The notes: generated from the sequence alone by a model not told the origin. Counted from the stretch's first letter, positions 7,458 to 30,737 are shown. The stretch: 64,000 nucleotides of DNA from Kiritimatiellia bacterium (GCA_017514235.1 JAFWKK010000026.1:114-64113), one strand, 5' to 3'. Numbers and translations are program-made.

Positions 7458-10226
7458 ATGAAATCGTGGAACGAGATTCGCAAGGCGGCAACGGCGTTCT
7501 CGAAACGTTGGAAAGACGCATACGATGAGAAGAGCCAGGCGCAGAGCTTCCTAAAGGAGTTCTTTGCAGTCTTCGGCGTTGATATCGTCCTGTTTAACAC
7601 ATTTGAGCATCGCGTGAAGTTTGGCGACGGCTCGCAGGGCTATGCCGACTGCTTTTGGCAGGGCAAGATACTCGTCGAAATGAAGTCTCGCGGCAAAGAC
7701 CTCGACGTGGCATACTCACAGGCCCTCGACTACGTTCGCGCCTTGTCCGACGTCTCGCAGGCGCCTCGCGCGATAGTAGTGAGCGACTTCGTCCGTGTTC
7801 GCTTCTACGACCTTGCCAACGACTGTGCGCTCACCGAGTTTGCGCTAAAGGACTTGCGCAAGTTCGTGACGCTCTTCGGCTACATGATCGGCGCTGACGA
7901 ACGCGCCGAAATCCGCGAGCAGGATCCCGTGAACCGCAAGGCCGCGGAGAAGATGGCGAAGCTGCACGACGCGATGAAGGCCGTCGGCTACACGGGCCAT
8001 CCGCTCGAAGTGTATCTTGTGCGGCTTCTCTTCTGCCTTTTCGCCGAAGACACCGGAATATTCAAGCCAAACCAGTTTGGCGACTTCATAGAGCAGCGGA
8101 CTTCCGCCGACGGCAGCGACCTCGCGGCGAAGCTCGCCGAACTTTTCCAGGTGCTGAACACTCCGCCGGAGAAACGTCTTGCGACGCGTGACGAGTCGCT
8201 GGCGGCGTTTCCGTATGTGAACGGCGGCCTGTTCGCAGAATGCCTGCCCATCGCGGCGTTCTCGCCCGAAATGCGCCGCGCTATTCTTGATTGCGGCGAA
8301 CTCGATTGGTCGAAGATATCTCCTGCCATCTTCGGCGCGATGTTTCAGGGCGTGATGGACGAGAAGGCCCGGCATGACCTCGGCGCGCACTACACGAGCG
8401 AAGAGAACATCCTCAAGCTCATCAAGCCTCTTTTTCTTGATGCGCTTCGCGTGGAGTTTGACGGCATCTGCGCGCTCAGGGGCAATTCGCGTCCGTCGCG
8501 CCTCAGGGCGTTTCACGACAAGATTGCCTCGCTCACGTTTCTCGACCCAGCCTGCGGATGCGGCAACTTCCTTCTCATCGGGTACCGTGAACTGCGCCAC
8601 ATCGAGATGGATGTCCTGGACGAATTGCACAAGGACGACCCGTCGCTCGTTCTCGACGTCACCCAGCTCTGCAAGGTCAACGTCTCGCAGTTCTACGGAA
8701 TCGAGATCGAGCCGTTCCCCGCCGAAATCGCCAAGGTCGCGCTTTGGCTCATGGATCACCTCTGCAACATGGAGGTGGCAGACCGCTTCGGCCAGTATTT
8801 CGCCCGCATCCCGATCAAAGACTCCCCGCACATTGTCTGTGCCAACGCGCTCACGACTGACTGGCCTCGCACCGACTACATCATGGGCAATCCGCCGTTC
8901 TTGGGACGGATGCAGAAGAGCGCGGAGCAACAGGCGGAGATCGACAGGTTCTTTGATTACAAGGACGTCGACTTTGTGGCCTGCTGGCATGCGAAGGCGG
9001 CAGAATGTAGCTTCCTTGCCGCAAAGGACGGAAGGAGCACAGGTGTTGCATTAGTCTCGACCAATTCCATCACGCAGGGAGAGCAGGTGGCTCCGCTTTG
9101 GCGAACCCTCGGAAAGTTTGGGGTAAAGATCGATTTCGCTTATCGAACTTTCAGGTGGCACAACGAAGCAAAGGGGGTTGCCGCCGTCCATTGCGTGATA
9201 ATTGGATTCCACTCAGGATGTCCCGTAGAGACCGCAGAGAAGTATCCCGCCCTGCGTACCATGCGGGAGAAAGCAAGGACAATCTACGACTCCGACGGAA
9301 CCGCGATTTCCGCATCGCACATAAACGGCTATCTTGTAGATGCACCTGACATCATTGTGGAAAGTCACAGCAAACCGCTTTGCGATGTTCCTCGTCTTTC
9401 CATGGGCAACATGCCACTTGACGGCGGCAATCTTATAATCGAAGCCAACCAACTGTCGCATTTTGCAAAAACCGATGGTACGCTTCCGTCTTTCGTGAAA
9501 CGTCTTACAGGTTCGAAGGAATACATACAAGGACTCGACCGCTGGTGCCTGTGGCTGAAGGACGTGGAGCCGTCGGCCATCCGCTCGATGCCGCTCGTGA
9601 TGGAGCGCGTAGCCAAGTGCCGCGAATGGCGGCTCGCAAGCAAATCCGCCGACACTCGCAAGCACGCTGCAACGCCGATGATCTTCCGCGAGCAGAAGAA
9701 CCCCAAGACAGCAATCATCATCCCAAGTGTTTCGTCAGAAAGGCGCGAGTATGTACCTATCGGATTTATTGATGATTCTGTGATTGTTACAAATCTCGCG
9801 TTCGTAATTCCCGACGCGACACTCTACCACTTCGGCATCCTCTCGTCGCGGATGCACATGTCCTGGATGCGCGCGGTGGCCGGTCGGCTGAAATCGGACT
9901 ATCGCTATTCCAAGGACATCGTCTATAATAATTTTGTCTGGCCCGAACTCAGCGACTCCGCAGTTCCTCGTGAGAAAATATCCGAAGCCGCACAAGCCAT
10001 TCTTGACGCCCGCGCCGCGCACCAAGGCGCGACGCTTGCCGACCTCTACGATCCGCTCACGATGCCGCCCGATCTCGTGAAAGCACATGCTCATCTCGAT
10101 GCGCTTGTCGACAAGGCATACGGCCTAAAGCCAACCGCAGCCGACGCCGACCGCGTCGCCTTGCTCTTCAAGCTCTATGCAGAAAAGACGAAAGCGTGGA
10201 ATCCGACGGAAAATGGTACAATATGA
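7458..10226 (+). CDS. MmeI-family Type IIL restriction-modification enzyme (fused PD-(D/E)xK endonuclease, N6-adenine MTase, target recognition domain)
   Basis: YADCFW...VEMKS nuclease motif, HYTS, FLDPACGCGNFL (motif I), GNPPF (motif IV), GRLKSDYRYS and VYNNF C-terminal motifs; 922 aa is typical MmeI length. Confidence 0.93.
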   Translation: MKSWNEIRKAATAFSKRWKDAYDEKSQAQSFLKEFFAVFGVDIVLFNTFEHRVKFGDGSQGYADCFWQGKILVEMKSRGKDLDVAYSQALDYVRALSDVSQAPRAIVVSDFVRVRFYDLANDCALTEFALKDLRKFVTLFGYMIGADERAEIREQDPVNRKAAEKMAKLHDAMKAVGYTGHPLEVYLVRLLFCLFAEDTGIFKPNQFGDFIEQRTSADGSDLAAKLAELFQVLNTPPEKRLATRDESLAAFPYVNGGLFAECLPIAAFSPEMRRAILDCGELDWSKISPAIFGAMFQGVMDEKARHDLGAHYTSEENILKLIKPLFLDALRVEFDGICALRGNSRPSRLRAFHDKIASLTFLDPACGCGNFLLIGYRELRHIEMDVLDELHKDDPSLVLDVTQLCKVNVSQFYGIEIEPFPAEIAKVALWLMDHLCNMEVADRFGQYFARIPIKDSPHIVCANALTTDWPRTDYIMGNPPFLGRMQKSAEQQAEIDRFFDYKDVDFVACWHAKAAECSFLAAKDGRSTGVALVSTNSITQGEQVAPLWRTLGKFGVKIDFAYRTFRWHNEAKGVAAVHCVIIGFHSGCPVETAEKYPALRTMREKARTIYDSDGTAISASHINGYLVDAPDIIVESHSKPLCDVPRLSMGNMPLDGGNLIIEANQLSHFAKTDGTLPSFVKRLTGSKEYIQGLDRWCLWLKDVEPSAIRSMPLVMERVAKCREWRLASKSADTRKHAATPMIFREQKNPKTAIIIPSVSSERREYVPIGFIDDSVIVTNLAFVIPDATLYHFGILSSRMHMSWMRAVAGRLKSDYRYSKDIVYNNFVWPELSDSAVPREKISEAAQAILDARAAHQGATLADLYDPLTMPPDLVKAHAHLDALVDKAYGLKPTAADADRVALLFKLYAEKTKAWNPTENGTI

Positions 10227-11032
10227 GCATGAAAGGGAATGCGAGCTTTCCGGGACATCCGGGACTGGCAGGACAACCGGGACCCGCCTTCGCCAAGGCT
10301 TCGGCAGGCAAGCGGGCAAGTCTTGGGAGTCCTGTTGCGTTCTCTCAGGCGACGCCAAAGATTGTGTTACCGCATGGTGGATACAAGAAGCTCATTGTTT
10401 ATCGCAAAAGCGATGTAATCTATCAGGGAACGGTCGCTTTTTGCCGCCGGTTCCTTCCGGCGCATGGCGACCGCACCGTTGATCAGATGACGCAGGCCGC
10501 CCGAAGCTGCAAGCAGAATATCGCCGAGGGCAGTGCGGCGAGCGGCACGAGCAAGGAAACGGAGATCAAGCTCACGAATGTCGCCCGCGCCACGCTTGAC
10601 GAACTGATCGAGGATTATCTCGACTGGCTCAAGTCGCACGGATTCGCCGAGTGGCCGTCTGACGACGAACGGCGCATGGCCGCGCGCGATTACGCGAAGG
10701 CGCATGCTGATTGGCCCGATTGGCAGAAACTCTTCGAGACGCGACCGGCGGACACTGTGGCGAACCTGATGCTGACCATCTGCCACCAGACGCGCTACAT
10801 GCTTGACAAGATGATTGCTGCGCAGGAAGAGGATTTCAAGAAGTATGGCGGAGTGCGAGAGCGAATGCACGCTGTCCGCACGGCGGCGCGCGGCGAAGAT
10901 TGGGACAAGAGCGTGTATTCCCGGCTAGATGCCGCCGCCGATGTTGCGGAGCTTGCCGCGAGAGCCAGCGAAATCAAGCGCAAGGCAGATCAAGCGGTGT
11001 GGAGCATCAAGAGGCGAAAGGGCTGGCAATGA
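10223..11032 (+). CDS. Four-helix-bundle protein (S23/23S-rRNA-IVS/Avd-like fold) with suffix domain
   Basis: HGGYKKL..Y, DQMTQAARSCKQNIAEG, LTNVARATLDELIEDY motifs. ATGA overlap with the RM stop at 10223-10226; alternative start at 10229. Confidence 0.85.
   Translation: MSMKGNASFPGHPGLAGQPGPAFAKASAGKRASLGSPVAFSQATPKIVLPHGGYKKLIVYRKSDVIYQGTVAFCRRFLPAHGDRTVDQMTQAARSCKQNIAEGSAASGTSKETEIKLTNVARATLDELIEDYLDWLKSHGFAEWPSDDERRMAARDYAKAHADWPDWQKLFETRPADTVANLMLTICHQTRYMLDKMIAAQEEDFKKYGGVRERMHAVRTAARGEDWDKSVYSRLDAAADVAELAARASEIKRKADQAVWSIKRRKGWQ
10252..10332. repeat. 9-bp-period array plus CCCGCCTTCGCCAAGGCTTCGGCAGG hairpin core (5' copy, inside the CDS N-terminus)
   Basis: GGGACATCC GGGACTGGC AGGACAACC GGGACCCGC, then the core, then inverted units AAGTCTTGG GAGTCCTGT. 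Confidence 0.75.
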
Positions 11033-11033
11033 C

Positions 11034-11153
11034 GAGACGGCCGAGACCAACAGGACAACCGGAACCCGCCTTCGCCAAGGCTTCGCGGACAAGTCTTGGC
11101 AGTCCCGCTTGTCTTGGCGGTCCCGTTAGTCCCGGCAGTCCCTTTAGTCATGG
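11034..11153. repeat. 9-bp-period inverted array plus the same core (3' copy)
   Basis: 34-nt direct repeat with 10270-10303 (33/34 identical, at 11052-11085), followed by about six inverted 9-mers (CAGTCCCGC, TTGTCTTGG, CGGTCCCGT, TAGTCCCGG, CAGTCCCTT, TAGTCATGG). Confidence 0.8.
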
Positions 11154-11220
11154 CAATGAAAACGAGAGTTTGGCAACAGGAATGTCTAAAGGCAACAAAT
11201 AATAGAAGAAAGGATTGGCA

Positions 11221-12141
11221 ATGATGATCGGAAGAAGAAAATGCATTTGTTTTGTCTTGGCCTGTGTCGCCGCGTCGTTCGTGACGGGCGCAATGGCTGC
11301 CACGGACCCTCGCGCGGGAGAGCCGGAGGGCGAGCGCATAGCGCTCTGGCCGGAGGGCAAGGTGCCGTCCCTTGAGGAGCATCAGTACAACGAGCCGTTC
11401 ATCGAATGGTTCGTGCCTTCAAACAAGACCACTGACGCCGTGATGATAGTGACGTGCGGCGGAGGATACGGCATCTGCAACTGGGTGCCGACCGGGTCGA
11501 TGGGAGGGGGATTCCGCGACTGGCTGCTTGAGAAGGGGATGACGGTCGTGCGCCTGCACCACAGGACGCCGCGTCCGAAGAAGGTCGCGAAGCACGTCAC
11601 GGCATGGCAGGACGCGCAAAGGGCCGTCCGGCTGGTGCGCCACGGCGCGGCGGCGCATGGGGTCAGCCCGGACAAGATCGGCTTCTTCGGCTATTCCGCC
11701 GCCGGACACCTTGCGCTTCTGATGGCGCTTTCCTCGCAGACCGGCACCTACGAGCCGATCGACGAGATAGACTCCCTGCCCTGTAACATAGCCTTTGCGG
11801 CGCCTGCGTATCCGGCGTATGTGCTGTCCGACGGCGTGAACAGCGTGAACACCCACGGCGGCGACCTCGCCGAGGACGTCATACTTCCCGAGTTCAAGTT
11901 TGATTCTGCGACGTGTCCTGTGTTCTTCATGCACGGCGATGCCGACGTAATCTCGCCGATGGGGAGCGTCAAGGTCTATTCGCGGCTGCACGCGATGCAT
12001 GTTCCGTGCGACCTTCACGTGTTCGCGAAGCGTGACCACGACTTCAAGTCCAAAGGCGCGATCAAGGGGAAGTTCCTTGCGTGGCGTCCGCTCCTCTGGG
12101 ACTGGCTAGTGCAGATGGGCTTCTGCGGCGATGCCTCATGA
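11221..12141 (+). CDS. Secreted alpha/beta hydrolase (BD-FAE-like carbohydrate esterase)
   Basis: Signal peptide; GGGY oxyanion motif; GYSAAG nucleophile; HGDAD and DH as likely triad Asp/His. Confidence 0.8.
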   Translation: MMIGRRKCICFVLACVAASFVTGAMAATDPRAGEPEGERIALWPEGKVPSLEEHQYNEPFIEWFVPSNKTTDAVMIVTCGGGYGICNWVPTGSMGGGFRDWLLEKGMTVVRLHHRTPRPKKVAKHVTAWQDAQRAVRLVRHGAAAHGVSPDKIGFFGYSAAGHLALLMALSSQTGTYEPIDEIDSLPCNIAFAAPAYPAYVLSDGVNSVNTHGGDLAEDVILPEFKFDSATCPVFFMHGDADVISPMGSVKVYSRLHAMHVPCDLHVFAKRDHDFKSKGAIKGKFLAWRPLLWDWLVQMGFCGDAS

Positions 12142-13434
12142 CGGCACGCCGGGCACCAGCATGTACGGCTGGGAGAAAAGCTCCTCGTTGCTGCCGTCAA
12201 GGGCGTACGCCTTCACGCGCGCGAACATGTGCACGGCGTTGCGCGGCCCGGCGGCACGGCCAGGCTTCCCCATGGTCCACTTGATCGAAGTTCCGCTCTT
12301 GACTTCCTCTACCGGGCCGAGCGCAGTGATCACCTGCAGGCGCGCGGGCTTGTCCGTCTCGGCCTCGACCGTCGTGCCCTTGAACGTTATGCGCGTGAAC
12401 TTCAGTTCGTTAAGTCCGCGCTTCGCACCGTAGAAGTTGCCGTCTCGGTAGGCCTTGAGGCATGCCTCCACCGTTCGCTCGGGCGTGAGCAGCACGTTCA
12501 CGCCGAACGAACCGCTCTTGATGCGGATCGAGTGGTCTGGCACGAAGAAGCCGAAGCATTGCCGTCCTGTTGAGAGAACCCAGTCCCAGTATGTCTCGCT
12601 GTTGCTGGTGCCGCCCTCGATCACCTCGATGCCAAGGACTCGCGGATCGTAATCGAGTATCTCCAGCATGAAGTTGCGGTCGTATGCAGACCACTTCGGG
12701 TGGTTCACCGTCACGCCGCCGCCGTCGGGGAAGATGAGGCCGGCGATCATGCGGTCGATGGCGGTCTTCCAGTGTTCGCCGGAGCCGAAGCTGTATCCGC
12801 CGCGCTCGCCGGTCTGGAAGCGCCGCTTCTGCCACTGGTCGAACGTGCCGGAAGCGAACGCCGAGCCAGGCGCGTTCATGTGCAGGCGCGGAGCCGGGCG
12901 GTCGCCGTCGCGGCGGAAGGAGTGGTGCTCGGCGTTCGGCGCCTCAAGGACGCCCTCCGGCAGGGGCTTGAATATCTTGCCGCCTTCCTTGAACGGATAT
13001 TCCGCCTGGAGCTCGGCCGGGAGTTCCTTTATCCACTGTCCGACGATCTTGTTCCAGTCGAACGGACCCTCCACGCGCTTGCCGTTCACCGTCACCGGGA
13101 AGTCGTGGTGCAGGCGGTAGTAGTTCTCCGTCATCTTCGAGAGCGGCCACCACGGCGCGCTCGGGTAGTAGTTGGAGAGCGTGAGGAACTCGATGCGCTT
13201 CAGGATGACGTCAAGGTCTTCCTGCGTCTTGCAGTGGACGTGCGTCGTGCCCCTGATCTGAAGCGCCGTTGTCCAGTCCACGTCCTTGTATGGATGCCTG
13301 TTGCGGGTTGGCACGCTCGCGCCGCGCCCGTCGGCAGGAGACGCCTTTGTCGCTCCCGCAGTGTCGGCATCGCAGGATGCGCATCCGCCCATCGCCGCCG
13401 TAGCGGCCGCCACCATGAATTCACGCCTGTTCAT
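12136..13434 (-). CDS. Tat-exported (lipo)protein with PHP-like metallophosphoesterase domain
   Basis: Start reassigned to MNRREF (twin-arginine) with lipobox-like MGGC; metal motifs THVH, NAEHH, NHP, PDHS. Confidence 0.65.
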   Translation of the reverse strand: MNRREFMVAAATAAMGGCASCDADTAGATKASPADGRGASVPTRNRHPYKDVDWTTALQIRGTTHVHCKTQEDLDVILKRIEFLTLSNYYPSAPWWPLSKMTENYYRLHHDFPVTVNGKRVEGPFDWNKIVGQWIKELPAELQAEYPFKEGGKIFKPLPEGVLEAPNAEHHSFRRDGDRPAPRLHMNAPGSAFASGTFDQWQKRRFQTGERGGYSFGSGEHWKTAIDRMIAGLIFPDGGGVTVNHPKWSAYDRNFMLEILDYDPRVLGIEVIEGGTSNSETYWDWVLSTGRQCFGFFVPDHSIRIKSGSFGVNVLLTPERTVEACLKAYRDGNFYGAKRGLNELKFTRITFKGTTVEAETDKPARLQVITALGPVEEVKSGTSIKWTMGKPGRAAGPRNAVHMFARVKAYALDGSNEELFSQPYMLVPGVPS

Positions 13435-17770: not shown

Positions 17771-19315
17771 TCAATCCATGTATGTGCCAGTGGCATCGTG
17801 ATCGTCAAGCCCCATGTCGTGCACCACGTCACGCAGGTTGCGGATCAGGTCAAGATCGTAATGCCACTTCCAGAGGGGGCTTTCCTCGTAGGCCGATCCC
17901 CACGCCGCCGCCGCGCCGCCAGCGAACGTATCGGCGAACACCTTGCCCTTCTCCTTGCCCTGCCCGAAGCCCCATGTGGTCACGAGCATTCCCTTCAGCC
18001 CGAGCTTGAGGACTGATTCTCGCTGAACCATCGTGTTGTCGACCTTGTGGCAGGGACATGATACGACCTCGAACCCCTTGTCCTTGAAATGCTTGAGCGA
18101 CGCGTAGTTCCCCTCTGGGCACTTCAGGCCGTAGACCCAGTCGCAGATCACCATGTCACGCGGCAGTTCGTCCAGGATCGTGATCGATTCGTCCGTGCCG
18201 TTGGCGACGGAGCCCGGCCATTTCGGGTCGCGCTTCTTTATGAACATGTCGTGCCAGAGCATCGGCGTTGCGCCACGGGCCTTGAGCCCGTCGTGCAACG
18301 CCTTGATGTGCTTGACGGTCAGCGCACGGTAGTCTGCCGCGAGGCAACGCGGACAGTTCGGCTTCGCCGGCTCGTCGCAGCCGATGTGAAAATATGGCGG
18401 GTTGTCAAACAGCTCCATCAGCTCGTCGATGATCTCGAACTGCACCTTGAGCGTTTCGGGATTGGAGATGCACCAGTTCCATCCGTTCAGCGACTCGAAT
18501 AGCGGCGCATATTCCCCATGCGCATCTAGGATGGCGTGGCGCCCGGGGGAGGTGATGCCCATCGAGGCGTGTCCAAAGGCGGGTATCTGGGGGATGAGCG
18601 TGATGCCCAGTTCCTTGCCGAGCTTAACGAGCCTTCGCGTGACGGCTGGCGTCATCGTCCCCTCCTTCCACCCCCACCACGGGTGCCGCTCCGAACGGAA
18701 GGTGCCCCATGGTTCGATCACCGCGTAGTTGTACTTGAGGTAAGCGGCGAGGCGAATCCGCTTCTCGATTTTCTCTGGAGTCGTGCGGTTGACATACCAG
18801 CCAAGGTGAATGCCCCTGAACTTCATCGCCGGCGCATCCGTCACCTTCATCGCCGGCATCGCATACCATTCGACCTTGCGCACGTCGCGCGGCATGGCAA
18901 GGATCGTCTGACGAAGCGTGTAGAGCGCATAGCGCACGCCTTGGAGCGTGTTGGCCCGCACCGACACCCCGTCGGGACGCGCCGTCAGCTCGTAAGCTTC
19001 GTCGCCGCCCGCGACCGGCTCGCCTGCGAACGTCGCCGCCGCTACGCGCGGCGCATTGGCAGATGGGAAGAACCACCCAGTCTTCGTGAGGCGGAACCAT
19101 TCGTCGAAACGCGCCTCGGCCCATTCCGCCGCCTGCCCCGAGCCGTCCGCGCATGCGATCGTCACGGTCTGGCTCCTGTCGAGCCGCACCAGCGTATTGG
19201 AATCGACCGACATCGTCACTGGCTTCGGTTCCACATACGGCGCGAACACGAACTCCGCCGCCGAAACGCCCGTCGAAATCGCACACAATCCACAGATTGC
19301 CGCCATCCTTTTCAT
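17771..19315 (-). CDS. GH20-family beta-N-acetylhexosaminidase-like
   Basis: EAYEL..RPDGV GH20b domain, D.P.MKFRGIHL, FGHA, catalytic HIGCDE; start at MKRMAA. Confidence 0.85.
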   Translation of the reverse strand: MKRMAAICGLCAISTGVSAAEFVFAPYVEPKPVTMSVDSNTLVRLDRSQTVTIACADGSGQAAEWAEARFDEWFRLTKTGWFFPSANAPRVAAATFAGEPVAGGDEAYELTARPDGVSVRANTLQGVRYALYTLRQTILAMPRDVRKVEWYAMPAMKVTDAPAMKFRGIHLGWYVNRTTPEKIEKRIRLAAYLKYNYAVIEPWGTFRSERHPWWGWKEGTMTPAVTRRLVKLGKELGITLIPQIPAFGHASMGITSPGRHAILDAHGEYAPLFESLNGWNWCISNPETLKVQFEIIDELMELFDNPPYFHIGCDEPAKPNCPRCLAADYRALTVKHIKALHDGLKARGATPMLWHDMFIKKRDPKWPGSVANGTDESITILDELPRDMVICDWVYGLKCPEGNYASLKHFKDKGFEVVSCPCHKVDNTMVQRESVLKLGLKGMLVTTWGFGQGKEKGKVFADTFAGGAAAAWGSAYEESPLWKWHYDLDLIRNLRDVVHDMGLDDHDATGTYMD

Positions 19316-19337
19316 GTCTCTTCTCCTTCTTTTCCCG

Positions 19338-19372
19338 TTAGCAACCAACCGCTCAGCACTAACCGCTGGCTA
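19338..19372. repeat. Degenerate 7-bp tandem array downstream of the second propeller gene
   Basis: TTAGCAA CCAACCG CTCAGCA CTAACCG CTGGCTA; same period and similar consensus as 20300-20334. Confidence 0.45.
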
Positions 19373-20290
19373 CCGCTTCATTTCGTTGCGGAACTTGATG
19401 TAGCGCGTGATGTCGCGGATCTTCCCGTCCTTCAGCTCCGCATAGCGGAATAGCGTCTGGGACGGCGCCGGATCAAGCTGCAGCTTGCTCGCCTGGGACC
19501 AGCAGTTTAGCGTAAGCGCGTATATGAGGCGCACATCCCCTGGCTTTACCGCGCCGGAGCCATCGACGGAGGCGGGTTCGCCGCCGCCCACGAGGTCGAC
19601 CCCGTGCCGCCAGCCGAACACGTGCGACTGGAGGACTTGAAAATTCTTGTCGAACACGAAGAAGCACGGATATTCCTCCTCCGGCGTGTAGAAGTTGACG
19701 TACAGCCTCTCGCCGTCCGTAGCCATGTTCTGCACGCCGGCGGACACGTCAAAGCCGTGGTCCACGAGAAACGGCTCGCAAAGCGGCTCAAGCGTCTCGG
19801 CGTCGAACTTGCCGAAGTAGTTGCCGCGGAAGGGCTTTTCGGGAATGCGCGCCGGCCCCAACCCCACATACAGGACGCCGTCCAGGCAGGTGATGCCGTC
19901 GGCGGAACGCTTGAACTCCTTGGAGCCGACGCGCTTGAGGTTCTCGTCCCAAACGTCTATGCGCCCCCTGTTGCCGGGCGTCTCCTGCTTGCCGCAGACA
20001 GCCGTGTAGAGCTTGCCGTTCCAGAAGCAGATGTCGCCGGTGTGCTTGTCGGCCCGGACGTGCATGATCATCCGCCCGTACCAATCGAACTTGTATATGC
20101 CGTCATGAAGCGTCCCGTAAATCGCGTTTGACGTCACGCACATGCCTTGAAGGTGTCCGCTCCCTTTCGCGAGTGCGCCGGGGCGCGTGAGGATCGGCTC
20201 CCAGTTCGGCGGGATAGGTGGAGCGGGATGCGATGCCAAGACTCCCGTCGCAAAAGCGCACACGCCTCCTATGATCAACATCTTCTTCAT
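19370..20290 (-). CDS. Secreted hypothetical protein, probable beta-propeller (paralog 2)
   Basis: Signal peptide; blade-like repeats GHLQGMC, HTGDIC, DGITC, QNMATDG. Confidence 0.6.
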   Translation of the reverse strand: MKKMLIIGGVCAFATGVLASHPAPPIPPNWEPILTRPGALAKGSGHLQGMCVTSNAIYGTLHDGIYKFDWYGRMIMHVRADKHTGDICFWNGKLYTAVCGKQETPGNRGRIDVWDENLKRVGSKEFKRSADGITCLDGVLYVGLGPARIPEKPFRGNYFGKFDAETLEPLCEPFLVDHGFDVSAGVQNMATDGERLYVNFYTPEEEYPCFFVFDKNFQVLQSHVFGWRHGVDLVGGGEPASVDGSGAVKPGDVRLIYALTLNCWSQASKLQLDPAPSQTLFRYAELKDGKIRDITRYIKFRNEMKR

Positions 20291-20299
20291 ATCTTTTCT

Positions 20300-20334
20300 C
20301 TAATCACTAACCACTAATCACTAACCACTAATCA
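20300..20334. repeat. Perfect 7-bp tandem array (CTAATCA/CTAACCA alternating, 5 units)
   Basis: Read directly from the sequence; fills most of the spacer between the two paralogs and includes the upstream stop codon. Confidence 0.9.
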
Positions 20335-21237
20335 CCGTTTCAAAGGATACCTGAAGACGCAATGGCGGGTGATGTCCTCGATCTTGCCGTCCTTCATCTC
20401 GGCGAACTGCAGCAGCGCCTGAACGGGCAGACGCGGCTGAATCTTCTTGCCGCCGATCCAGTTGACGGTAGTGCTGTAGATGAAGCGCACCGCGCCGTCT
20501 TCGCCGCCAGGTATCACGTCCACGCCCTGCCGCCACCCGAAGACGTTGGCCGCCTTTACGGTCTTGAAATCCTTGTCGAACGTGATGAAGCAGGGCGTCT
20601 TGGCCGTCTCGTCCGGGCTGTAGAGCGCCACGTAGATGTTCGTGCCGTCGGTCGTCATGTTCTGCGGTCCGCACGAATGCTCGTAGCCGGGATCGACGGC
20701 GAAGGGCTTGCACAGCGGCTGGAGCGTTTTCGTGTCGTATTTGCCGATCCAGAACCCGCGGTTCGGAATCGCGGGCTTGGTGAGCGCGCTCATCCCCGCG
20801 TAGATGACGCCGTCCAGGCAGGTGATGCCGTCGCCGCCATGTCCCGTCCATGTCACCTCGCGGAGGAACGTGAGATCCTCGTCGTACTCCTGGATGGCTC
20901 CAGTGATCTTGGGCGTCTCCTTCCTTCTCCCGCCCACGGAGACGACCGTGTAGAGACGTCCGTTCCACCAGCAGATGTCGCCCGTGTGCTTCTCGGTAGT
21001 GACGCGCTTCAGGGCGCGTCCGTACCAGTCTGTCTTGAGAATCTGGTTGTGGAAGGCGAAGTAGAGCGCGTTGGAAGTGGCGCACATGCCCTGAACGTGC
21101 CCACACCACGTGTTCCCCGTCATTTCCTGTACCGCGCCCGGCGCAGTGAGCCGGGCGTCCCAGCTGGGCACCTGCCAGGCGTAAAGCGAAAGCACGGCAC
21201 CCGCCGCGCAGACGGTCAACAGTTTCTTCATTTTCAT
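20332..21237 (-). CDS. Secreted hypothetical protein, probable beta-propeller (paralog 1)
   Basis: Colinear similarity to 19370-20290 (GHVQGMC, HTGDIC, DGITCLDG, QNMTTDG, FGWR.GVD, KDGKI.DITR). Confidence 0.6.
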   Translation of the reverse strand: MKMKKLLTVCAAGAVLSLYAWQVPSWDARLTAPGAVQEMTGNTWCGHVQGMCATSNALYFAFHNQILKTDWYGRALKRVTTEKHTGDICWWNGRLYTVVSVGGRRKETPKITGAIQEYDEDLTFLREVTWTGHGGDGITCLDGVIYAGMSALTKPAIPNRGFWIGKYDTKTLQPLCKPFAVDPGYEHSCGPQNMTTDGTNIYVALYSPDETAKTPCFITFDKDFKTVKAANVFGWRQGVDVIPGGEDGAVRFIYSTTVNWIGGKKIQPRLPVQALLQFAEMKDGKIEDITRHCVFRYPLKR

Positions 21238-21257
21238 GGCAACCCCCTTAAGCGCAC

Positions 21258-23684
21258 CTATTTCACGAAAAGCAGCAATCCGCCGGTGTGTGGATGCAGG
21301 TAGCCGTCCTCGTCTTGATCGACGCGCCTTGCGCCCGTCGGCGCCGCGCTATCCTTCCAGCGGAATAAGTTGCGCTCCTCGTCCGTAAGAGTAGCGTTGA
21401 ACTTGATGACATTGCCTTCCAACGGCGCATCGATCGTGATTGCTTTCGGCTGAAGTCCTTCGCCCGCCGTGAACGACGCGAACGAGAGCGACCCGCCCTC
21501 GCCGACAGTGAGCGTCGCGTTCGTGTTCACCGTGAGCGCGTCAAGCGCGTTGGACTTCCCGTCGGCGACCGCCAGGTTGCCGCCCGCCAGCACGACCGCG
21601 TTCGTCATGCTGTTGCTCGCGCCCAGGATGAACGTGCCGCCGTAAAGACGGGTCTGGCACCGAACGGGCTTGCCACTCCCTGCCAGTTTGAGCGCACCGT
21701 CTCCATACTTCTCGAAATGGTAGTACTCAAATTTTGCAGCAGGCGCCTGGATGCCAGCAAGCGTGCAGTCAACCTGCTCGTCGCCAGTCACATTGTTCAC
21801 ATTGATCTGGAAAGTCCTGGCACTTGAAACGGTTGAGTTTCCGTACGGCCTTATGCCACTTCCCTCAATGCTGGACGGTTCCGAGCCTACCACATTGTAA
21901 TAGTTTATACTAGTGAGAACCGAACGTGGAGCCGTTGAGCCTGAAGTCATACGCGCACCATCCTTCAGCAAGAGATAGTTCAGGTAAATCCCACCACCGC
22001 CAATATGATCCAAGGTGCCTCCATCCACCTCCACCTGTTGAGAACTCGCGATCTGACCATTGTCGTCGCGCCGCAGAATGCCACCGCGCTTGATCTTGAG
22101 CGTACTGGTGCCTCCTGAAATGCCTACACCGACAGTTAACCCGTCAGCACAGAGCTTGACATCCGCGTTGGTAAGCACATTGACGTTGCCGTATGTGGGG
22201 AACGCGGTCGTGGATGTGACGGTCACGTACAACGGCCTTTCACCGCCATCGAACGTCAACTGGTTGCCGACCATGGCGTTCATGGTGCCGTTCAGCGTGA
22301 CGCACCCCATCTTGGACTCGCCTTCAAAGGTCGCGGTAATCATGTGGATGCCATAGCCGCTTGTGCTCGCCGATGTCGCCACATTCCCTGTAAGGGGAAT
22401 CTCCGAGAAATCAGTATTAATCGGATGAGTTGACAACGGCTTGAAGCCTGCGGCGGTCGCCTTGATTTCCACATTCAATCCATTCTGACGGAGCATGGCC
22501 ATCACAACCTTGTTGTTGCTCCCTGCCGCGTACTGGAACTGGCAGGTGGCCGTATCGGTAGCAGAATCATACTTGATATGGTAGGCATCCGTCGGCGTAC
22601 CGCCAACATCGGTATAGTCGGCGTAGTTATGACTTCCGCCCAGCATTCGTCCCGTAAGCGCCGTCAGGGCCGACAGCGAGCGGTTCGTGGCGATGACCTG
22701 CCATGACGTGGTGATCCACGGCTCGAAATAGTAGGAACCCGTATAGGCGGTCGTTGGCGCCATCGGCACGATGCGCACGTCGCCGTCGCCGGTAAAGGTT
22801 TCCGTGATCGTGTTGTCGCCTTCCGGCACAGCCACGACAGCTTCCATGCCGGCGGCGACAGACGTTTCGCCGCCGAGCGTCACGCCGCCATCGAAGCGAA
22901 CGTTCGCCAGCGCGGCCATGCCCTTCTTGGCAGCCATGATCTTCGTCAACCCCCACTCGGAAACCCTGCCGAGCTTTTCGCCGCCATCGGTGATGTTCGC
23001 CACGCACCAATGTCCCTTGTCAGGCCCCTGGACCTTACTGTTCGCCCAAAGGGGTGTCGACGGATAGTAGCCAAAACGCGGCGACCGCGAAATGGTTATG
23101 CAACGGATGCCGCTGGCGCTGATTTGCGGACGGAAGGTATAGGTGTGGTCTGCGGTAATGCGATTGAACGTGAAAATGTTCGATGACGGACCATCTATTA
23201 AACGCTCAATGCGCCCCGGACAGATGTTGCCCGTTGAAACATAAACCACCGAATTTGGCTCAAGATCGGAGGCGACGATAATATTGCCGCCATTATAGAA
23301 GGTGTTTGTCCAAGACTGGTATTGCGCGGCGTACTCCGTGAGAGCCGTATTACTCGTCCAGACAATGTACGCCCCGTCGCTGCGGGAGAGGGTGAGCTTG
23401 CCGAGGGTTGTCACCTTGCTGGCGAAGGAGACCGTGCCGGAGGTGGACAGCGTGATCGCCGCGTCGTCGGCAAAGGTCATCGCGTCGCCCGTGAGCGTGA
23501 TCGTGCCGCCATCCGTCGGAGTCGCCGTCAGCGTCTTGACGTCGGTCGTTCCTTCCTCATAGGTAAGGACCACGGTGCCATCGCCAAGCGACGTATCGCC
23601 CGAGGTGTAAGGGTAGGATCCGTCGGACGCAGAAGCGCAAAGCGCCATCAGCGAGACCGCAACCGGTATGCTTTTGATGTTCAT
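21258..23684 (-). CDS. Large secreted beta-rich surface protein with an autotransporter-associated passenger-type repeat
   Basis: Signal peptide; G/T/S/N-rich; EKYGDGALKLAG repeat; ends HPHTGGLLLFVK; no C-terminal beta-barrel. Confidence 0.65.
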   Translation of the reverse strand: MNIKSIPVAVSLMALCASASDGSYPYTSGDTSLGDGTVVLTYEEGTTDVKTLTATPTDGGTITLTGDAMTFADDAAITLSTSGTVSFASKVTTLGKLTLSRSDGAYIVWTSNTALTEYAAQYQSWTNTFYNGGNIIVASDLEPNSVVYVSTGNICPGRIERLIDGPSSNIFTFNRITADHTYTFRPQISASGIRCITISRSPRFGYYPSTPLWANSKVQGPDKGHWCVANITDGGEKLGRVSEWGLTKIMAAKKGMAALANVRFDGGVTLGGETSVAAGMEAVVAVPEGDNTITETFTGDGDVRIVPMAPTTAYTGSYYFEPWITTSWQVIATNRSLSALTALTGRMLGGSHNYADYTDVGGTPTDAYHIKYDSATDTATCQFQYAAGSNNKVVMAMLRQNGLNVEIKATAAGFKPLSTHPINTDFSEIPLTGNVATSASTSGYGIHMITATFEGESKMGCVTLNGTMNAMVGNQLTFDGGERPLYVTVTSTTAFPTYGNVNVLTNADVKLCADGLTVGVGISGGTSTLKIKRGGILRRDDNGQIASSQQVEVDGGTLDHIGGGGIYLNYLLLKDGARMTSGSTAPRSVLTSINYYNVVGSEPSSIEGSGIRPYGNSTVSSARTFQINVNNVTGDEQVDCTLAGIQAPAAKFEYYHFEKYGDGALKLAGSGKPVRCQTRLYGGTFILGASNSMTNAVVLAGGNLAVADGKSNALDALTVNTNATLTVGEGGSLSFASFTAGEGLQPKAITIDAPLEGNVIKFNATLTDEERNLFRWKDSAAPTGARRVDQDEDGYLHPHTGGLLLFVK

Positions 23685-29104: not shown

Positions 29105-30511
29105 CTAGTTGTTGGGGGTCAGAGTTGGAGTTGGAGAATGGATTTCTGCCATTCCTTTCTCGAACTCGAACTTTCCGTCCCCGCTTTTCTTTCTGCCAAA
29201 AAGATGTTCAAGCTCGTCGAGCGGCTTGCCCTTCGTCTCCGGGATGAAGAGCGCGACGATGAAGTAGAGGACGCCGTTCGCGGCGAAGAAGAAGAACATC
29301 GACGCCCAGCCCCAGGCGTTCACCCACGGGAGGAATGACGAGGCGAGTCCCCACGCCACGAACTGGTTCATGAACAGCGCGATTGCCATGCCGTTCGCGC
29401 GTATGCGAGAGGGCATCAGCTCGGAGAGGACGAGCCACACGCAGATTCCGGGGCCGAGCGCGTAGAAAACCTGCATCACGAAGAACGCCGCGAGGCAGAA
29501 AAGCCCCGTTGCGCCGGAGGCCTCGACCCCGAAGCGCTCGATGGACAGAAGGACGCCGCCAATAGCGGCAAGGCCTAGCGTCATGCCCGCCGTTCCGACC
29601 TTGAGAAGCCACGTGCGCCCGACCCTGTCTATGAGAGAAGCCGCGACGAGCGTCACCACGAGGTTGGTCAGCTTTATGGCGAAGTCGCCCACGTTGCCGA
29701 GCGCACCCGCGAAGCCGGCCTTCTGGAAGATCATCACGGAATAGCTTGTGATCGAGCTCATGCCCGTCGTCTTGTTCAGGGTAAGCACAGCGACTGCCAA
29801 TAGAAACGGCAAAACATAGCGACGGGTGAAAAGCGATCCTCGCGGCAATGTCGCGTTCGTCACGTCCGTCCTATCCGTCACGTCATGCAGCCGCTTCAGC
29901 CACACCGGGCTTTCCGGCAAGCGAAGCGCCCCGAAGAAAAGCACCGCGACAGGAGCCATCGTCCACCAGAAGTTGACTTTCCACGCGGCGGACTTGGCGG
30001 CGCAAGAAACGATGTCGGAAGGCGCGTCCGCCGCGCCGTAGAGCCGGGCGACGAGGTACCCCGTAGCGGCCGCCGCGACAAGCCCGAGGCCTAGGCAGAA
30101 CTGAAATACGCCCGTGCCGCGTCCGCGGATGTCGCTAGGCAGCGTCTCAGTCAGGTACATCGGCATGACGACGCTCATGTAGCCGGCGCTCATTCCCTGG
30201 AGGACGCGCCCGAAGAGCATGGACCAAAGCGAATTCTCCGAGAGGCAGACCGCCGGTATCGCGACGAGGAAGAGCGCGGCGGAGGCGACTATCATGCGCT
30301 TCCTGCCAAAACGCTCCGCAAGCATTCCGGCCGTCAGCGACGAGACGATGCCGCCGAAGAGCACCGCGCCGACGATCCAGCTCAGCTCCGCGTCCGTGAA
30401 AAGGCGAAGCGCCCTTATGTACGGCGAGGCGGCGGCTATCACGCCGAAGTCGACGCCATAAAGAAGCCCGCCCAGCCCGGCAATTGCGAGCAGGTAGCGC
30501 GTACGTGTCAT
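29105..30511 (-). CDS. Sugar porter (SP) family MFS transporter
   Basis: GGLLYG.D.GVI, ERFGRK, PMYL.E, PESP, DRVGR, SELMP..IR and PETKGK motifs; start at MTRTRY. Confidence 0.92.
   Translation of the reverse strand: MTRTRYLLAIAGLGGLLYGVDFGVIAAASPYIRALRLFTDAELSWIVGAVLFGGIVSSLTAGMLAERFGRKRMIVASAALFLVAIPAVCLSENSLWSMLFGRVLQGMSAGYMSVVMPMYLTETLPSDIRGRGTGVFQFCLGLGLVAAAATGYLVARLYGAADAPSDIVSCAAKSAAWKVNFWWTMAPVAVLFFGALRLPESPVWLKRLHDVTDRTDVTNATLPRGSLFTRRYVLPFLLAVAVLTLNKTTGMSSITSYSVMIFQKAGFAGALGNVGDFAIKLTNLVVTLVAASLIDRVGRTWLLKVGTAGMTLGLAAIGGVLLSIERFGVEASGATGLFCLAAFFVMQVFYALGPGICVWLVLSELMPSRIRANGMAIALFMNQFVAWGLASSFLPWVNAWGWASMFFFFAANGVLYFIVALFIPETKGKPLDELEHLFGRKKSGDGKFEFEKGMAEIHSPTPTLTPNN
29123..29172. 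repeat. 6-bp-period imperfect inverted array forming the 3' tail of the MFS gene
   Basis: AGTTGGAGTTGGAG ... CTCGAACTCGAACT, with inner stem GAATGG/CCATTC. Confidence 0.5.
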
Positions 30512-30737
30512 TTCACCCTGTTTCACCGTGGTGCATTTTACCAAAACATCACCATGCGATGAATACCCTATTCGCCAAAAAAACATAACCTTTTCAACAA
30601 CGCCGAGGCCGGAAGCGAATCAAAGGCGGGGGGATCTTCCAATTCGGTGCCCCATTGAAGTTTAGCGAGGGGGATGCTATACTACAAGCGTGTTTTTGCC
30701 CGAAGTTCTCGGGTCGGCGAACAATAAGGAGAAAAAC

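What the first reader, a model, noticed from the sequence alone, without database searches (positions are those of the whole stretch)
10214..11153. Four-helix-bundle (IVS/Avd-like) gene bracketed by twin 9-bp-period hairpin arrays: candidate small mobile cassette
Seen: the gene core is flanked by a 34-nt direct repeat (10270-10303 and 11052-11085, one mismatch). Each copy sits inside an inverted array of GGGACNNNN-type 9-mers around a CCCGCCTTCGCCAAGGCTTCG core. The 5' copy is translated as part of the protein (PGHPGLAGQPGPAFAKASAGK). A TGGTACAAT promoter lies inside the last codons of the RM gene. Established: this fold includes 23S-rRNA intervening-sequence proteins and the DGR accessory protein Avd, which binds RNA. 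Seen: no RT, transposase or rRNA nearby, while solo arrays of the same design occur at 3247, 19338, 20300, 29123 and 29850. Inference: the 5' left arm can pair with the 3' right arm and loop out the ORF like an IVS. The protein may recognise or mobilise such repeat-stem RNAs, with the solo arrays as non-autonomous footprints.
Basis: partly seen in the sequence, partly recalled or inferred. Interest (0 to 1): 0.72.

Follow-up and report, generated by a model that had tools for sequence, protein, structure and literature searches.

The report
Repeat-bracketed four-helix-bundle gene cassette
A small, strongly conserved gene of unknown function sits behind a restriction enzyme gene, bracketed by complementary arrays of 9-base repeats, and the same design recurs around related genes in several bacterial phyla, much like the spacer elements that interrupt ribosomal RNA genes.

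Summary
A four-helix-bundle "suffix" gene (10364..11032, or from ATG 10229) follows an MmeI-type restriction-modification (RM) gene. It is bracketed by two imperfect palindromes of 9-nt GRGACNNNN / NNNNGTCYC units. They share a 53-nt direct repeat whose 34-nt centre has one mismatch.

The design is family-wide. About 70 of 80 relatives (70-95% identical) in unrelated contexts carry the arrays. Unit spacers co-vary between arms, and the arrays are rare elsewhere. Flank-to-flank pairing gives z = -7.7 for this gene, against -2.3 to +1.6 for 37 control ORFs. Other four-helix-bundle genes in Kiritimatiellae, cyanobacteria, Bacteroidota and Gemmatimonadota carry the same bracket built from other 7-8-nt units.

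The protein is under strong purifying selection (dN/dS about 0.07). Many copies lie in RM or CRISPR-Cas operons, and presence is patchy among close MmeI relatives.

Best reading: an IVS-like, RNA-insulated, recombinationally shuffled cassette. Mobilisation by the protein is untested.

Two sub-claims do not hold up. The "solo arrays" named in the window are not this family. Translation of the 5' array is doubtful.

The array centre, a 29-nt motif, occurs identically in at least 120 genomes from more than 12 phyla. It remains unexplained.

The parts
7458..10226 (+). MmeI-type (type IIG) restriction-modification gene, the host operon gene directly upstream. Its last codons overlap the cassette promoter.
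   Evidence: Pfam MmeI_N/hel/Mtase/TRD/C, E 1e-26 to 1e-78. PADLOC REase_MTase_IIG 1103 bits.
10214..10222 (+). Extended -10 promoter-like TGGTACAAT, followed by ATGAGCATGAAAGG. It marks the left end of nucleotide homology with other cassettes (about 10204).
   Evidence: TGGTAYAAT occurs 6 times on the + strand in the window against 0.16 expected. It lies within 330 nt upstream in 16 of 70 homologous loci, about 8-fold over background. Homology with L140 starts at 10204. The -35/-10 consensus scan does not call it.
10249..10340 (+). 5' palindromic array. Left arm: 4 x GRGACNNNN (10249-10283). Centre: 10284-10312. Short right arm: GTCTTGGGA GTCCTGTTG (10320-10337).
   Evidence: Fold -44.8 kcal/mol, z -1.0. 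A homologous hairpin array lies upstream of the start codon in most of 80 relatives.
10284..10312 (+). Copy 1 of the 29-nt centre motif (CCGCCTTCGCCAAGGCTTCG GCAGGCAAG).
   Evidence: Exact 20-mer only at 10284 and 11066 in the window. The same 20-mer occurs in at least 120 genomes of many phyla. Consensus YCCGCCTTCGCCAAGGCTTCGGCGGRCARG.
10364..11032 (+). Four-helix-bundle 'suffix' protein gene. It is 222 aa from GTG 10364. The ORF is also open from ATG 10223/10229 (gene callers give 267 aa).
   Evidence: TIGR04258 66.9 bits and TIGR02436 30.5 bits. PF05635 29.4 bits, below the 33.8 cutoff. AF2 model pLDDT 83.7, all helical; best PDB matches 2GSC (prob 1.0, TMt 0.75-0.79) and 2RLD. 7453 homologues. 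dN/dS median 0.074.
11033..11155 (+). 3' palindromic array starting one base after the stop codon. Left arm: 4 x GRGAC/GGAAC units (11033-11065). Centre motif copy 2: 11066-11093. Right arm: 7 x GTCYYNNNN (11092-11155).
   Evidence: Fold -48.5 kcal/mol, z -1.6. An equivalent array follows the stop codon in at least half of the relatives.
10251..10303 (+). Direct repeat copy A (left arm plus centre). Its partner is 11033-11085.
   Evidence: 53 nt, 85% identical. The inner 34 nt have one mismatch. The closest relatives, L140 and L160, have a different apex in the 3' hairpin, so the shared centre looks like a recent copy or gene conversion.
11033..11085 (+). Direct repeat copy B.

Best explanation
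This is an IVS-like gene cassette. It has three parts.
- A four-helix-bundle (S23p/IVP-family, 'suffix' subtype) protein gene.
- In many copies, its own extended -10 promoter.
- Complementary short-tandem-repeat arrays at the two ends of its transcript.

In this lineage each flank is itself a palindrome of 9-nt GRGACNNNN units. The RNA can therefore form two terminal stem-loops or one 50-80-bp 5'-3' panhandle that loops out the ORF.

I propose that this double-stranded stem works as in 23S rRNA intervening sequences. It delimits, protects and probably (via RNase III) cuts the cassette RNA out of the host transcript. That would let the cassette be tolerated inside operons, here behind an MmeI-type RM gene and elsewhere inside type I RM and CRISPR-Cas operons.

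At the DNA level the repetitive palindromes slip and recombine. This would shuffle, duplicate, delete and relocate the cassette, and would seed solo arrays, some of them in frame within neighbouring genes.

The protein is functional and probably binds nucleic acid, as its relative Avd does.

Shown: the architecture, its family-wide and cross-phylum recurrence, arm covariation, specificity to these genes, context diversity and patchiness, and purifying selection.

Inferred: RNA pairing in vivo, RNase III processing, what the protein binds, and the route of movement.
For: - **Architecture in the window:**
- **Flank pairing:** 5'/3' flank duplex -126.6 kcal/mol, z -7.7, against -2.3..+1.6 for 37 control ORFs.
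- **Full-transcript folding:** 52 long-range array-array pairs in the window MFE and 14-81 pairs in 12 of 16 other loci.
- **Recurrence in 80 relatives:** hairpin arrays abut the start codon/SD and the stop codon. A crude detector finds them at the 5' flank in 43 of 69 loci and at the 3' flank in 35 of 69. It finds only 5 arrays in 237 kb of remaining flank and 4 short runs in 883 kb of unrelated genomes.
- **Hairpin strength:** z -4 to -7.8 in 11 of 12 sampled hairpins.
- **Covariation:** spacer complementarity between arms is 0.68 within a hairpin against 0.53 across loci. For the 5'-left arm against the 3'-right arm of the same locus it is 0.67 against 0.51.
- **Other subfamilies and phyla, same bracket with other units:**
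  - L088 Kiritimatiellae, 8-nt GAAACTYG about 30 times / CRAGTTTC about 20 times.
  - Nostoc GGGAACA/TGTTCCC, Geminocystis, Calothrix, Leptolyngbya, Riemerella.
  - Anabaena sp. 90 between cas6 and cas4, and Picosynechococcus between cmr2 and cmr3.
  - In all, 8 of 12 plasmid loci have z <= -3.7.
  - The upstream array is the purine-rich one in 11 of 11 cases.
- **Functional protein:** dN/dS 0.05-0.08 at dS 0.4-1.7.
- **Contexts and patchiness:**
  - RM families top the list of flanking Pfam hits.
  - The cassette is present next to MmeI genes 100%, 85% and 82% identical to the window's, and absent at 86% and 77%.
  - L220 carries a relic hsdM 3' end upstream of its array.
  - Tandem copies occur in L142 and L164.
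  - The identical protein P0005 has two different upstream neighbourhoods that diverge just before the promoter.
- **Precedents:** RNase III excision of a stem-bracketed S23p ORF in Coxiella (PMC4990558). IVP genes inside cas operons (PMC3936711) and inside CPR rRNA insertions (10.1101/2024.02.27.582315).
Against: - No transcript data could be found for this locus, so pairing and processing are thermodynamic predictions only.
- The window's own two hairpins are degenerate (z -1.0 and -1.6).
- Arm mismatches show no clear bias for G.U over A.C (120 vs 91). Selection on RNA of the + strand is therefore not demonstrated, and a DNA-level palindrome fits equally well.
- The 3' arrays are not followed by U-tracts, so they are not classical terminators.
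- About a quarter of loci lack one or both arrays, and one cyanobacterial gene has none.
- Copies are old, and there are no empty sites at strain level.
Confidence: 0.5

Rival explanations
1. Autonomous mobile element. In this reading the four-helix-bundle protein recognises hairpin or short-tandem-repeat DNA or RNA. It inserts its gene into the apex of pre-existing palindromic arrays, as IVSs sit at the tips of rRNA helices. Solo arrays are then empty targets or non-autonomous derivatives.
For: - Half-array / ORF / complementary half-array is exactly what insertion into a hairpin apex would give (L088, Nostoc, Geminocystis, Calothrix, Anabaena).
- Units are lineage-specific, as if host repeats were reused.
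- Solo GGGAC arrays lie in frame in neighbouring MmeI and hsdR genes.
- The gene is found inside operons and in rRNA insertions, where it alternates with homing endonucleases (10.1101/2024.02.27.582315).
- Distribution is patchy.
Against: - No catalytic motif or nuclease/recombinase similarity.
- Copies are not near-identical within samples (dS 0.4-1.7).
- MmeI loci without the gene have no empty hairpin (L222, L223).
- L220 moved together with foreign flanking DNA, which points to ordinary recombination.
- The family was not found in IMG/VR viral contigs.
Confidence: 0.2
2. Defence-operon accessory with an RNA partner. The array RNA and the protein would form a regulatory or toxin-antitoxin-like pair, comparable to type III ToxIN, or an autoregulatory loop serving the adjacent RM or CRISPR system. 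Mobility would be incidental.
For: - Strong purifying selection.
- Enrichment next to RM, Fic, AbiEii, DarT-NADAR and UvrD-like genes and inside cas operons (PMC3936711).
- The MmeI + 4HB pair is kept together in a different neighbourhood.
- The last array unit abuts the Shine-Dalgarno sequence.
- The upstream arm is purine-rich in 11 of 11 cases.
Against: - Many loci lie in non-defence contexts, such as FGE-sulfatase, glycosidases and feoB.
- No PADLOC hit.
- Close MmeI relatives do without it.
- Units differ completely between lineages while the protein core is conserved, which argues against sequence-specific recognition.
Confidence: 0.15
3. Coincidence. The arrays would be generic genome-wide REP/MITE/STRR-type repeats that pile up in permissive intergenic spots and are unrelated to the gene.
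For: - These genomes are riddled with palindromic short-period repeats of several kinds, even in frame inside MmeI homologues.
- The window has other short-period repeats.
- STRR heptamers are common in cyanobacteria (own knowledge).
Against: - GGGAC-type arrays occur in the window only at this gene.
- They are about 90-fold enriched at the gene flanks compared with the rest of the loci.
- They are absent where the gene is absent.
- The 5' and 3' arrays of a locus share units and are complementary.
- Control ORFs show no flank pairing.
- The same bracket appears in four phyla.
Confidence: 0.05

Closest known systems
23S (and 16S) rRNA intervening sequences carrying an S23p / 23S_rRNA_IVP ORF (Leptospira, Coxiella, CPR bacteria)
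   Same: - Same protein family.
- The ORF is enclosed by complementary ends that form a long stem.
- In Coxiella the stem is cut by RNase III (PMC4990558).
- Inserted in highly expressed host transcription units and horizontally acquired.
   Different: - Not in an rRNA gene; there is no rRNA in the 64-kb window.
- Has its own promoter.
- The stem is built from short tandem repeats, and here each flank is itself a palindrome.
- The protein is twice as long (suffix domain) and under strong purifying selection, whereas the Coxiella ORF is decaying and apparently not made.
Avd, accessory protein of diversity-generating retroelements
   Same: Four-helix-bundle fold of the same superfamily. Avd binds RT and RNA (own knowledge; 10.1101/2023.10.23.563531).
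   Different: No reverse transcriptase, template repeat or variable repeat near the gene. Different subfamily (TIGR04258 suffix).
Palindromic repeat elements: REP/BIME, Neisseria Correia elements, Rickettsia palindromic elements (RPE)
   Same: - Imperfect palindromes, intergenic and co-transcribed.
- Correia elements carry promoters and are RNase III substrates.
- RPEs insert in frame in coding genes, as the solo GGGAC arrays do in MmeI and hsdR homologues. (Element properties from own knowledge.)
   Different: - The arms are periodic arrays of 7-9-nt units whose number varies.
- The arrays are tied to one gene family.
- No RAYT or other transposase was seen.
Cyanobacterial STRR (short tandemly repeated repetitive) heptamer sequences
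   Same: The arrays around the cyanobacterial four-helix-bundle genes are heptamer tandem repeats of this type. STRRs are also known inside RNase P RNA hairpins (own knowledge; mentioned in PMC2858038).
   Different: STRRs are described as dispersed direct arrays of unknown function. A paired, inverted arrangement around four-helix-bundle genes was not found in the searchable literature.
Integron gene cassettes (ORF + attC)
   Same: A small ORF with an imperfect palindromic site at its end, shuffled between contexts.
   Different: - No integron integrase nearby.
- Palindromes lie on both sides.
- Many copies have their own promoter.
- Not organised in cassette arrays, apart from rare tandem duplicates.

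Membership tests
Four-helix-bundle protein family (TIGR02436 / Pfam PF05635 23S_rRNA_IVP, 'S23p') | Profile match at or above the curated cutoff | tested here: met
   TIGR02436 30.5 bits against cutoff 24. Pfam PF05635 gives 29.4 bits, just below its 33.8 cutoff. Precomputed PF05635 hits are on record for nearly all homologues.
Four-helix-bundle protein family (TIGR02436 / Pfam PF05635 23S_rRNA_IVP, 'S23p') | Up-and-down four-helix-bundle fold like Xcc0516 (2GSC) and BT_0352 (2RLD) | tested here: met
   AF2 model pLDDT 83.7, all helical. Foldseek top hits are 2GSC (prob 0.98-1.0, TMt 0.65-0.79) and 2RLD (prob up to 0.75); E-values are weak, 0.25-2. No PDB hit by sequence.
Four-helix-bundle protein family (TIGR02436 / Pfam PF05635 23S_rRNA_IVP, 'S23p') | Conserved motif GxxRxxxSxxxNxxE (PMC3936711) | tested here: inconclusive
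   The window has ..QAARSCKQNIAEG... The S-x3-N-x2-E part is present and invariant in 20 homologues. The R is displaced (R-S adjacent) and the G is absent.
Four helix bundle suffix domain proteins (TIGR04258) | C-terminal suffix domain match above cutoff | tested here: met
   66.9 bits against cutoff 40, residues 187-232 of the 278-aa ORF. Sources name close homologues 'four helix bundle suffix domain-containing protein'.
rRNA intervening sequence (IVS) | Inserted within a 23S or 16S rRNA gene helix | tested here: not met
   No Rfam family at gathering score anywhere in the window. The gene lies between an RM gene and a hydrolase gene.
rRNA intervening sequence (IVS) | Complementary ends that form a stem enclosing the ORF | tested here: met
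   5'/3' flank duplex -126.6 kcal/mol, z -7.7. 52 long-range pairs in the transcript MFE.
rRNA intervening sequence (IVS) | Excision from the precursor RNA by RNase III | not testable with these tools
   No RNA runs hold this locus. Contig laying was uninformative.
Diversity-generating retroelement (Avd + RT + TR/VR) | Adjacent reverse transcriptase and a template/variable repeat pair | tested here: not met
   No RT domain in genes within about 5 kb. The only repeats around the gene are the arrays.
Integron gene cassette | attC site recombined by a nearby IntI integrase | tested here: not met
   No integrase among neighbouring genes in the window locus. Palindromes lie on both sides of the ORF. 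attC-specific R/L boxes were not examined.
In-frame palindromic insertion elements (RPE-like) | Palindromic repeat inserted in frame in conserved protein genes | tested here: met
   This applies to the solo arrays only. L181 and L186 carry one inside MmeI-like genes between VIVGFH and TIYDG, and L171 carries one inside hsdR. P0122 reads ..GFHGKGTEGTNGTEGTGQSASLKSFESLKSLPKTIYD.. where the window protein has no array.
Type III toxin-antitoxin (ToxIN-like: RNA repeat array + endoRNase) | Protein related to ToxN/AbiQ-type endoRNases, preceded by direct RNA repeats | tested here: not met
   No PADLOC family matches the protein. The arrays are inverted and lie on both sides.
Cyanobacterial STRR repeats | Tandem heptamer repeats dispersed in heterocystous cyanobacteria | tested here: inconclusive
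   Heptamer arrays bracket the Nostoc, Calothrix, Anabaena and Geminocystis genes. The window arrays are 9-mers in a PVC-group bacterium. Whether the two are the same phenomenon is open.

The most novel reading that the evidence does not exclude
Four-helix-bundle (S23p/IVP) proteins would be the dedicated partners of a widespread, so far unconnected class of short-tandem-repeat palindromic elements. That class would include:
- PVC 9-mer arrays.
- Cyanobacterial STRR heptamers.
- Similar arrays in Bacteroidota and Gemmatimonadota.
- Possibly the pan-bacterial 29-nt centre motif.

Together they would form a new kind of hairpin-targeting genetic element. That would explain the origin of rRNA intervening sequences, the long-unexplained STRRs, and the in-frame palindromic insertions in conserved genes.
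Probability: 0.15. Interest if true: 0.9.

Novelty: new variant of a known kind. Interest (0 to 1): 0.7.

Why it matters
Four-helix-bundle (S23p/IVP) genes are very common but uncharacterised outside DGRs. This subfamily alone has 2895 clusters at 50% identity.

If the result holds, these genes carry the same stem-bracketed design outside rRNA genes and across phyla, built from lineage-specific short tandem repeats. That would:
- Link rRNA intervening sequences, cyanobacterial STRRs and small inserts in RM and CRISPR operons into one phenomenon.
- Give a testable RNA-level mechanism: RNase III insulation of an inserted cistron.
- Provide a simple signature, flank complementarity, for finding such cassettes.
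- Caution annotators, because gene callers translate the arrays as collagen-like N-terminal extensions and as insertions in RM proteins.

Tried and rejected
- **Rfam:** nothing on the arrays or the centre motif, using E-value mode on 9000-12500, gathering mode on the whole window, and 18 loci.
- **PADLOC:** no hit for the protein.
- **PDB by sequence:** none.
- **Exact look-up of the 278-aa ORF:** not on record.
- **Strain-level comparison:** 7 contigs are 99.7-99.8% identical, with no empty site and no array length variation.
- **Sequencing runs:** only DNA metagenomes and one run of unknown type. Laying contigs gave fragments and no junctions.
- **G.U against A.C mismatch asymmetry as a test for RNA-level selection:** not significant.
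- **Intrinsic-terminator reading of the 3' array:** rejected, no U-tract.
- **DGR, integron and type III TA readings:** rejected (see membership tests).
- **Link between the 20-mer centre motif and 4HB genes elsewhere:** rejected. Only 1 of 120 loci has a 4HB gene, 2 kb away.
- **IMG/VR:** no relatives of the protein.
- **Literature:** searches for the motif (as DNA and as peptides) and for STRR + 4HB found nothing.

Full report
**What is in the window**

The ORF 10196..11032 (+) follows an MmeI-type type IIG restriction-modification (RM) gene at 7458..10226 (Pfam MmeI_N/hel/Mtase/TRD/C; PADLOC REase_MTase_IIG). An alpha/beta hydrolase gene follows it.

The protein matches NCBIfam TIGR04258 (four helix bundle suffix domain, 66.9 bits against cutoff 40) and TIGR02436 (four helix bundle protein, 30.5 against 24). 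It matches Pfam 23S_rRNA_IVP just under the cutoff (29.4 against 33.8). An AlphaFold model is all-helical (pLDDT 83.7). Its best solved-structure matches are Xcc0516 (2GSC; probability up to 1.0, TM 0.75-0.79 on the target) and BT_0352 (2RLD), the two classic structures of this family.

Positions 10251-10303 and 11033-11085 are 85% identical over 53 nt, and the inner 34 nt have one mismatch. The 20-mer CCGCCTTCGCCAAGGCTTCG occurs only at 10284 and 11066 in the window.

GGGACNNNN-type 9-mers lie on the + strand at 10249-10283 and 11033-11065. Their complements (GTCYYNNNN) lie at 10320-10337 and 11092-11155. Each flank is therefore an imperfect palindrome.

Folded alone, the two palindromes are only marginally better than shuffles (z -1.0 and -1.6). 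The two flanks together pair at -126.6 kcal/mol, z -7.7, whereas 37 other long ORFs of the window give z between -2.3 and +1.6.

**Start codon and promoter**

Most homologues are 229 aa and begin MADIPKIVLPHGG, downstream of the 5' array. Longer gene calls simply translate the array as PGQPGRTGQ.../GSPGSPG....

The window lineage has lost that ATG. Translation starts either at GTG 10364 or at ATG 10223/10229, right after the promoter and through the array. I cannot decide between these.

TGGTACAAT at 10214-10222 matches the genome's standard extended -10 box. TGGTAYAAT occurs six times on the + strand against 0.16 expected. In 16 of 70 related loci it lies within 330 nt upstream of the gene, in most of these just ahead of the 5' array, about 8-fold over background. 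Other copies have no promoter and start their array right at the stop codon of the upstream RM gene.

**The design is a family property**

A metagenome scan returned 235 relatives, of which I examined 80 loci (70-95% protein identity).

- Nearly all show (GRGACNNNN)n - centre - (NNNNGTCYC)n directly upstream of the start codon, with the last unit abutting the Shine-Dalgarno sequence.
- Most show a second such hairpin starting at the stop codon.
- A deliberately crude detector finds 5' arrays in 43 of 69 loci, 3' arrays in 35 and both in 22.
- The same detector finds only five arrays in the other 237 kb of these loci and four short runs in 883 kb of unrelated genomes.
- Eleven of twelve sampled hairpins fold with z -4 to -7.8.

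The 4-nt spacers differ between lineages (AACC/GACG types against AAAA/AGAA types) but remain complementary between arms. Complementarity is 0.68 within a hairpin against 0.53 across loci. For the 5' and 3' arrays of one locus it is 0.67 against 0.51. Unit numbers differ between close relatives, as expected for slippage.

In full-length transcript folds, the 5' array pairs with the 3' array in the window (52 pairs) and in 12 of 16 other loci. Local hairpins remain a competing structure.

**The design extends beyond this subfamily**

- A short four-helix-bundle gene without the suffix domain, in a Kiritimatiellae MAG (L088), has about 30 GAAACTYG units upstream and about 20 complementary CRAGTTTC units downstream.
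- Among 12 annotated 'four helix bundle protein' / 'S23 ribosomal protein' genes on plasmids of isolates, eight have flank-flank duplex z <= -3.7, built from lineage-specific 7-8-nt units:
  - Nostoc GGGAACA/TGTTCCC.
  - Geminocystis GGGAAAA/TTTTCCC.
  - Calothrix GGGTGTA/TACACCC.
  - Anabaena sp. 90 CAGGTGA/TCACCTG, between cas6 and cas4.
  - Picosynechococcus, between cmr2 and cmr3.
  - Leptolyngbya.
  - Riemerella (Bacteroidota) AAGGTTY/RAACCTT.
- Two more, Stanieria and Gemmatirosa, show the arrays by eye.
- The two Nostoc PCC 7120 copies keep only the 3' array; in the gamma-plasmid copy an ISL3 transposase gene lies directly upstream.
- One gene (Pseudanabaena) has none.
- In all 11 informative cases the purine-rich array is the upstream one.

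I found no paper connecting such arrays, known in cyanobacteria as STRR sequences (own knowledge), with these genes.

**Behaviour of the cassette**

- **Purifying selection.** The protein has dN/dS 0.05-0.08 at dS 0.4-1.7. It is functional, and the copies are old rather than products of a recent burst.
- **Limited nucleotide homology.** Homology between the window and other loci is confined to 10204-11065.
- **Unrelated contexts.** The window has MmeI / hydrolase. Other loci have FGE-sulfatase / DUF4838, or VWA genes. The identical protein P0005 has two different upstream neighbourhoods that diverge just before the promoter.
- **RM association.** RM families top the flanking Pfam list: Methylase_S, MmeI domains, N6_Mtase, HSDR_N. 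Fic, AbiEii, DarT-NADAR and UvrD-like genes also appear. By eye, at least 17 of 80 loci sit after MmeI-type genes, between hsdM and hsdS, or between hsdS and hsdR.
- **Patchy presence.** Among the closest MmeI relatives the cassette is present at 100%, 85% and 82% identity and absent, arrays included, at 86% and 77%.
- **Movement with flanking DNA.** The 82% locus lies in a different neighbourhood and carries a relic of an hsdM 3' end in front of its array. This indicates transfer with flanking DNA by ordinary recombination.
- **Duplicates and broken copies.** Tandem duplicates occur in L142 and L164, and disrupted copies in L134 and L212.
- **Solo arrays.** Solo GGGAC arrays exist. Three of five lie in frame inside neighbouring RM genes (9 nt = 3 codons): inside MmeI-like genes in L181 and L186, inside hsdR in L171, and in protein P0122.

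**What did not hold**

- The 'solo arrays' listed in the window (3247, 19338, 20300, 29123, 29850) share neither the centre motif nor the unit. Only 29850-29881 is a weak 4-unit run.
- Seven strain-level contigs are 99.7-99.8% identical across the cassette, with no empty site.
- No RNA data exist for the locus.
- Arm mismatches do not favour G.U over A.C significantly (120 against 91). RNA-level selection is therefore not demonstrated.
- Nothing links the protein biochemically to the arrays.

**Interpretation**

The best-supported reading is an IVS-like cassette. A functional four-helix-bundle gene has transcript ends that are complementary repeat arrays forming terminal hairpins or a panhandle. 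By analogy with the RNase III-excised, S23p-encoding IVS of Coxiella (PMC4990558), this would insulate the inserted cistron from its host operon.

This fits the family's known occurrence inside cas operons (PMC3936711) and rRNA insertions (10.1101/2024.02.27.582315). It also fits its occurrence here inside RM operons. The repetitive palindromes provide recombination and slippage substrates that explain the shuffling, duplication, loss and solo arrays.

It is not a member of the IVS class in the strict sense, because it is not in rRNA. It is also not a DGR, an integron cassette or a ToxIN-type module.

Three rivals remain:
- The protein actively targets hairpin apices.
- The arrays and the protein form a defence-linked RNA-protein pair.
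- The arrays are unrelated generic repeats, which is now unlikely.

**Side finding**

The centre of both window palindromes, consensus YCCGCCTTCGCCAAGGCTTCGGCGGRCARG, is not specific to this family.

- The exact 20-mer occurs in at least 120 GTDB species genomes.
- The hits span Bradyrhizobium, Acidobacteriota, Verrucomicrobiota, Planctomycetota, Bacteroidota, CPR/Patescibacteria, Bdellovibrio, Elusimicrobia, Armatimonadota, Nitrospirae and others.
- It also occurs in 13 IMG/VR contigs.
- It often sits inside species-specific short tandem arrays or REP-like palindromes.
- In some genomes it appears in frame inside housekeeping genes. One is a class I aminoacyl-tRNA synthetase confirmed by Pfam; SecA-, UvrD- and RarA-like cases were judged by eye.
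- It is not linked to four-helix-bundle genes there (1 of 120 loci), matches no Rfam family and was not found in the literature.

I cannot explain it.

Noticed in passing
window 10284-10312 and 11066-11093; loci L001-L120, L225-L237: A 29-nt motif (YCCGCCTTCGCCAAGGCTTCGGCGGRCARG) is identical over at least 20 nt in 120 or more species genomes from more than 12 phyla, and in 13 viral contigs. It is usually embedded in species-specific short tandem arrays or REP-like palindromes, and sometimes lies in frame inside housekeeping genes. It matches no Rfam family and was not found in the literature. It is unexplained.
   Followed up: partly
proteins P0122, P0128, P0132, P0137, P0146, P0156, P0158 (MmeI homologues); L181 1859-1935; L186 1773-1857; L171 2092-2169: MmeI-type and hsdR genes of these gut PVC bacteria vary by up to about 180 aa. 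The differences come from in-frame insertions of several kinds of palindromic short-period repeats. Peptide examples are GTEGTNGTEGT..SLKSFESLKS, GNVANVEMLPI..GNIGTGNT, KCKMENVK..FTLYTLHS and KSHAEAQRG..SASPRTLREK. The behaviour resembles Rickettsia palindromic elements.
   Followed up: partly
window 20300-20335 and 19338-19375 (minus-strand operon 23684..17771): Intergenic spacers just upstream of two minus-strand start codons carry 7-nt-period purine-rich repeats on the coding strand. One reads GGTGATTAGTGGTTAGTGATTAG...AGAAAAGAT-ATG and the other GCGGTTAGTGCTGAGCGGTTGGTTGC.... They share GGTTAGTG and have no inverted partner. They might be leader or translation signals.
   Followed up: no
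window 29110-29180: An imperfect hairpin with 6-nt-period arms (GAGTTG x2.5 / CGAACT x2) at the 3' end of the minus-strand ORF 29105..30586. It is a different repeat family from the GGGAC arrays.
   Followed up: no
window 7351, 13522, 34021, 44156, 59042 (all + strand): TGGTATAAT occurs five more times (6 in total against 0.16 expected). At least three of these lie 40-110 nt upstream of long + strand ORFs (starts at 7458, 13602 and 34064). It appears to be the organism's standard extended -10 promoter.
   Followed up: partly
window 25809-25972 and 47580-47629: Tandem repeats of 33 nt x 5.2 (85% matches) and 21 nt x 2.4 (100%), reported by TRF. Both lie in regions covered by long ORFs and were not examined.
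   Followed up: no
L134 7772-8574 (equivalent to window 10229-11032): One of seven otherwise 99.7-99.8% identical strain-level contigs has a 1-nt indel that splits the four-helix-bundle gene into 181-aa and 87-aa ORFs. It is either a pseudogene or an assembly error.
   Followed up: no
L245 (Picosynechococcus PCC 7003 plasmid) and L246 (Anabaena sp. 90 pANA02): Four-helix-bundle genes with complementary flanking arrays sit between cmr2 and cmr3, and between cas6 and cas4. This extends the earlier report of this family inside cas operons (PMC3936711).
   Followed up: partly
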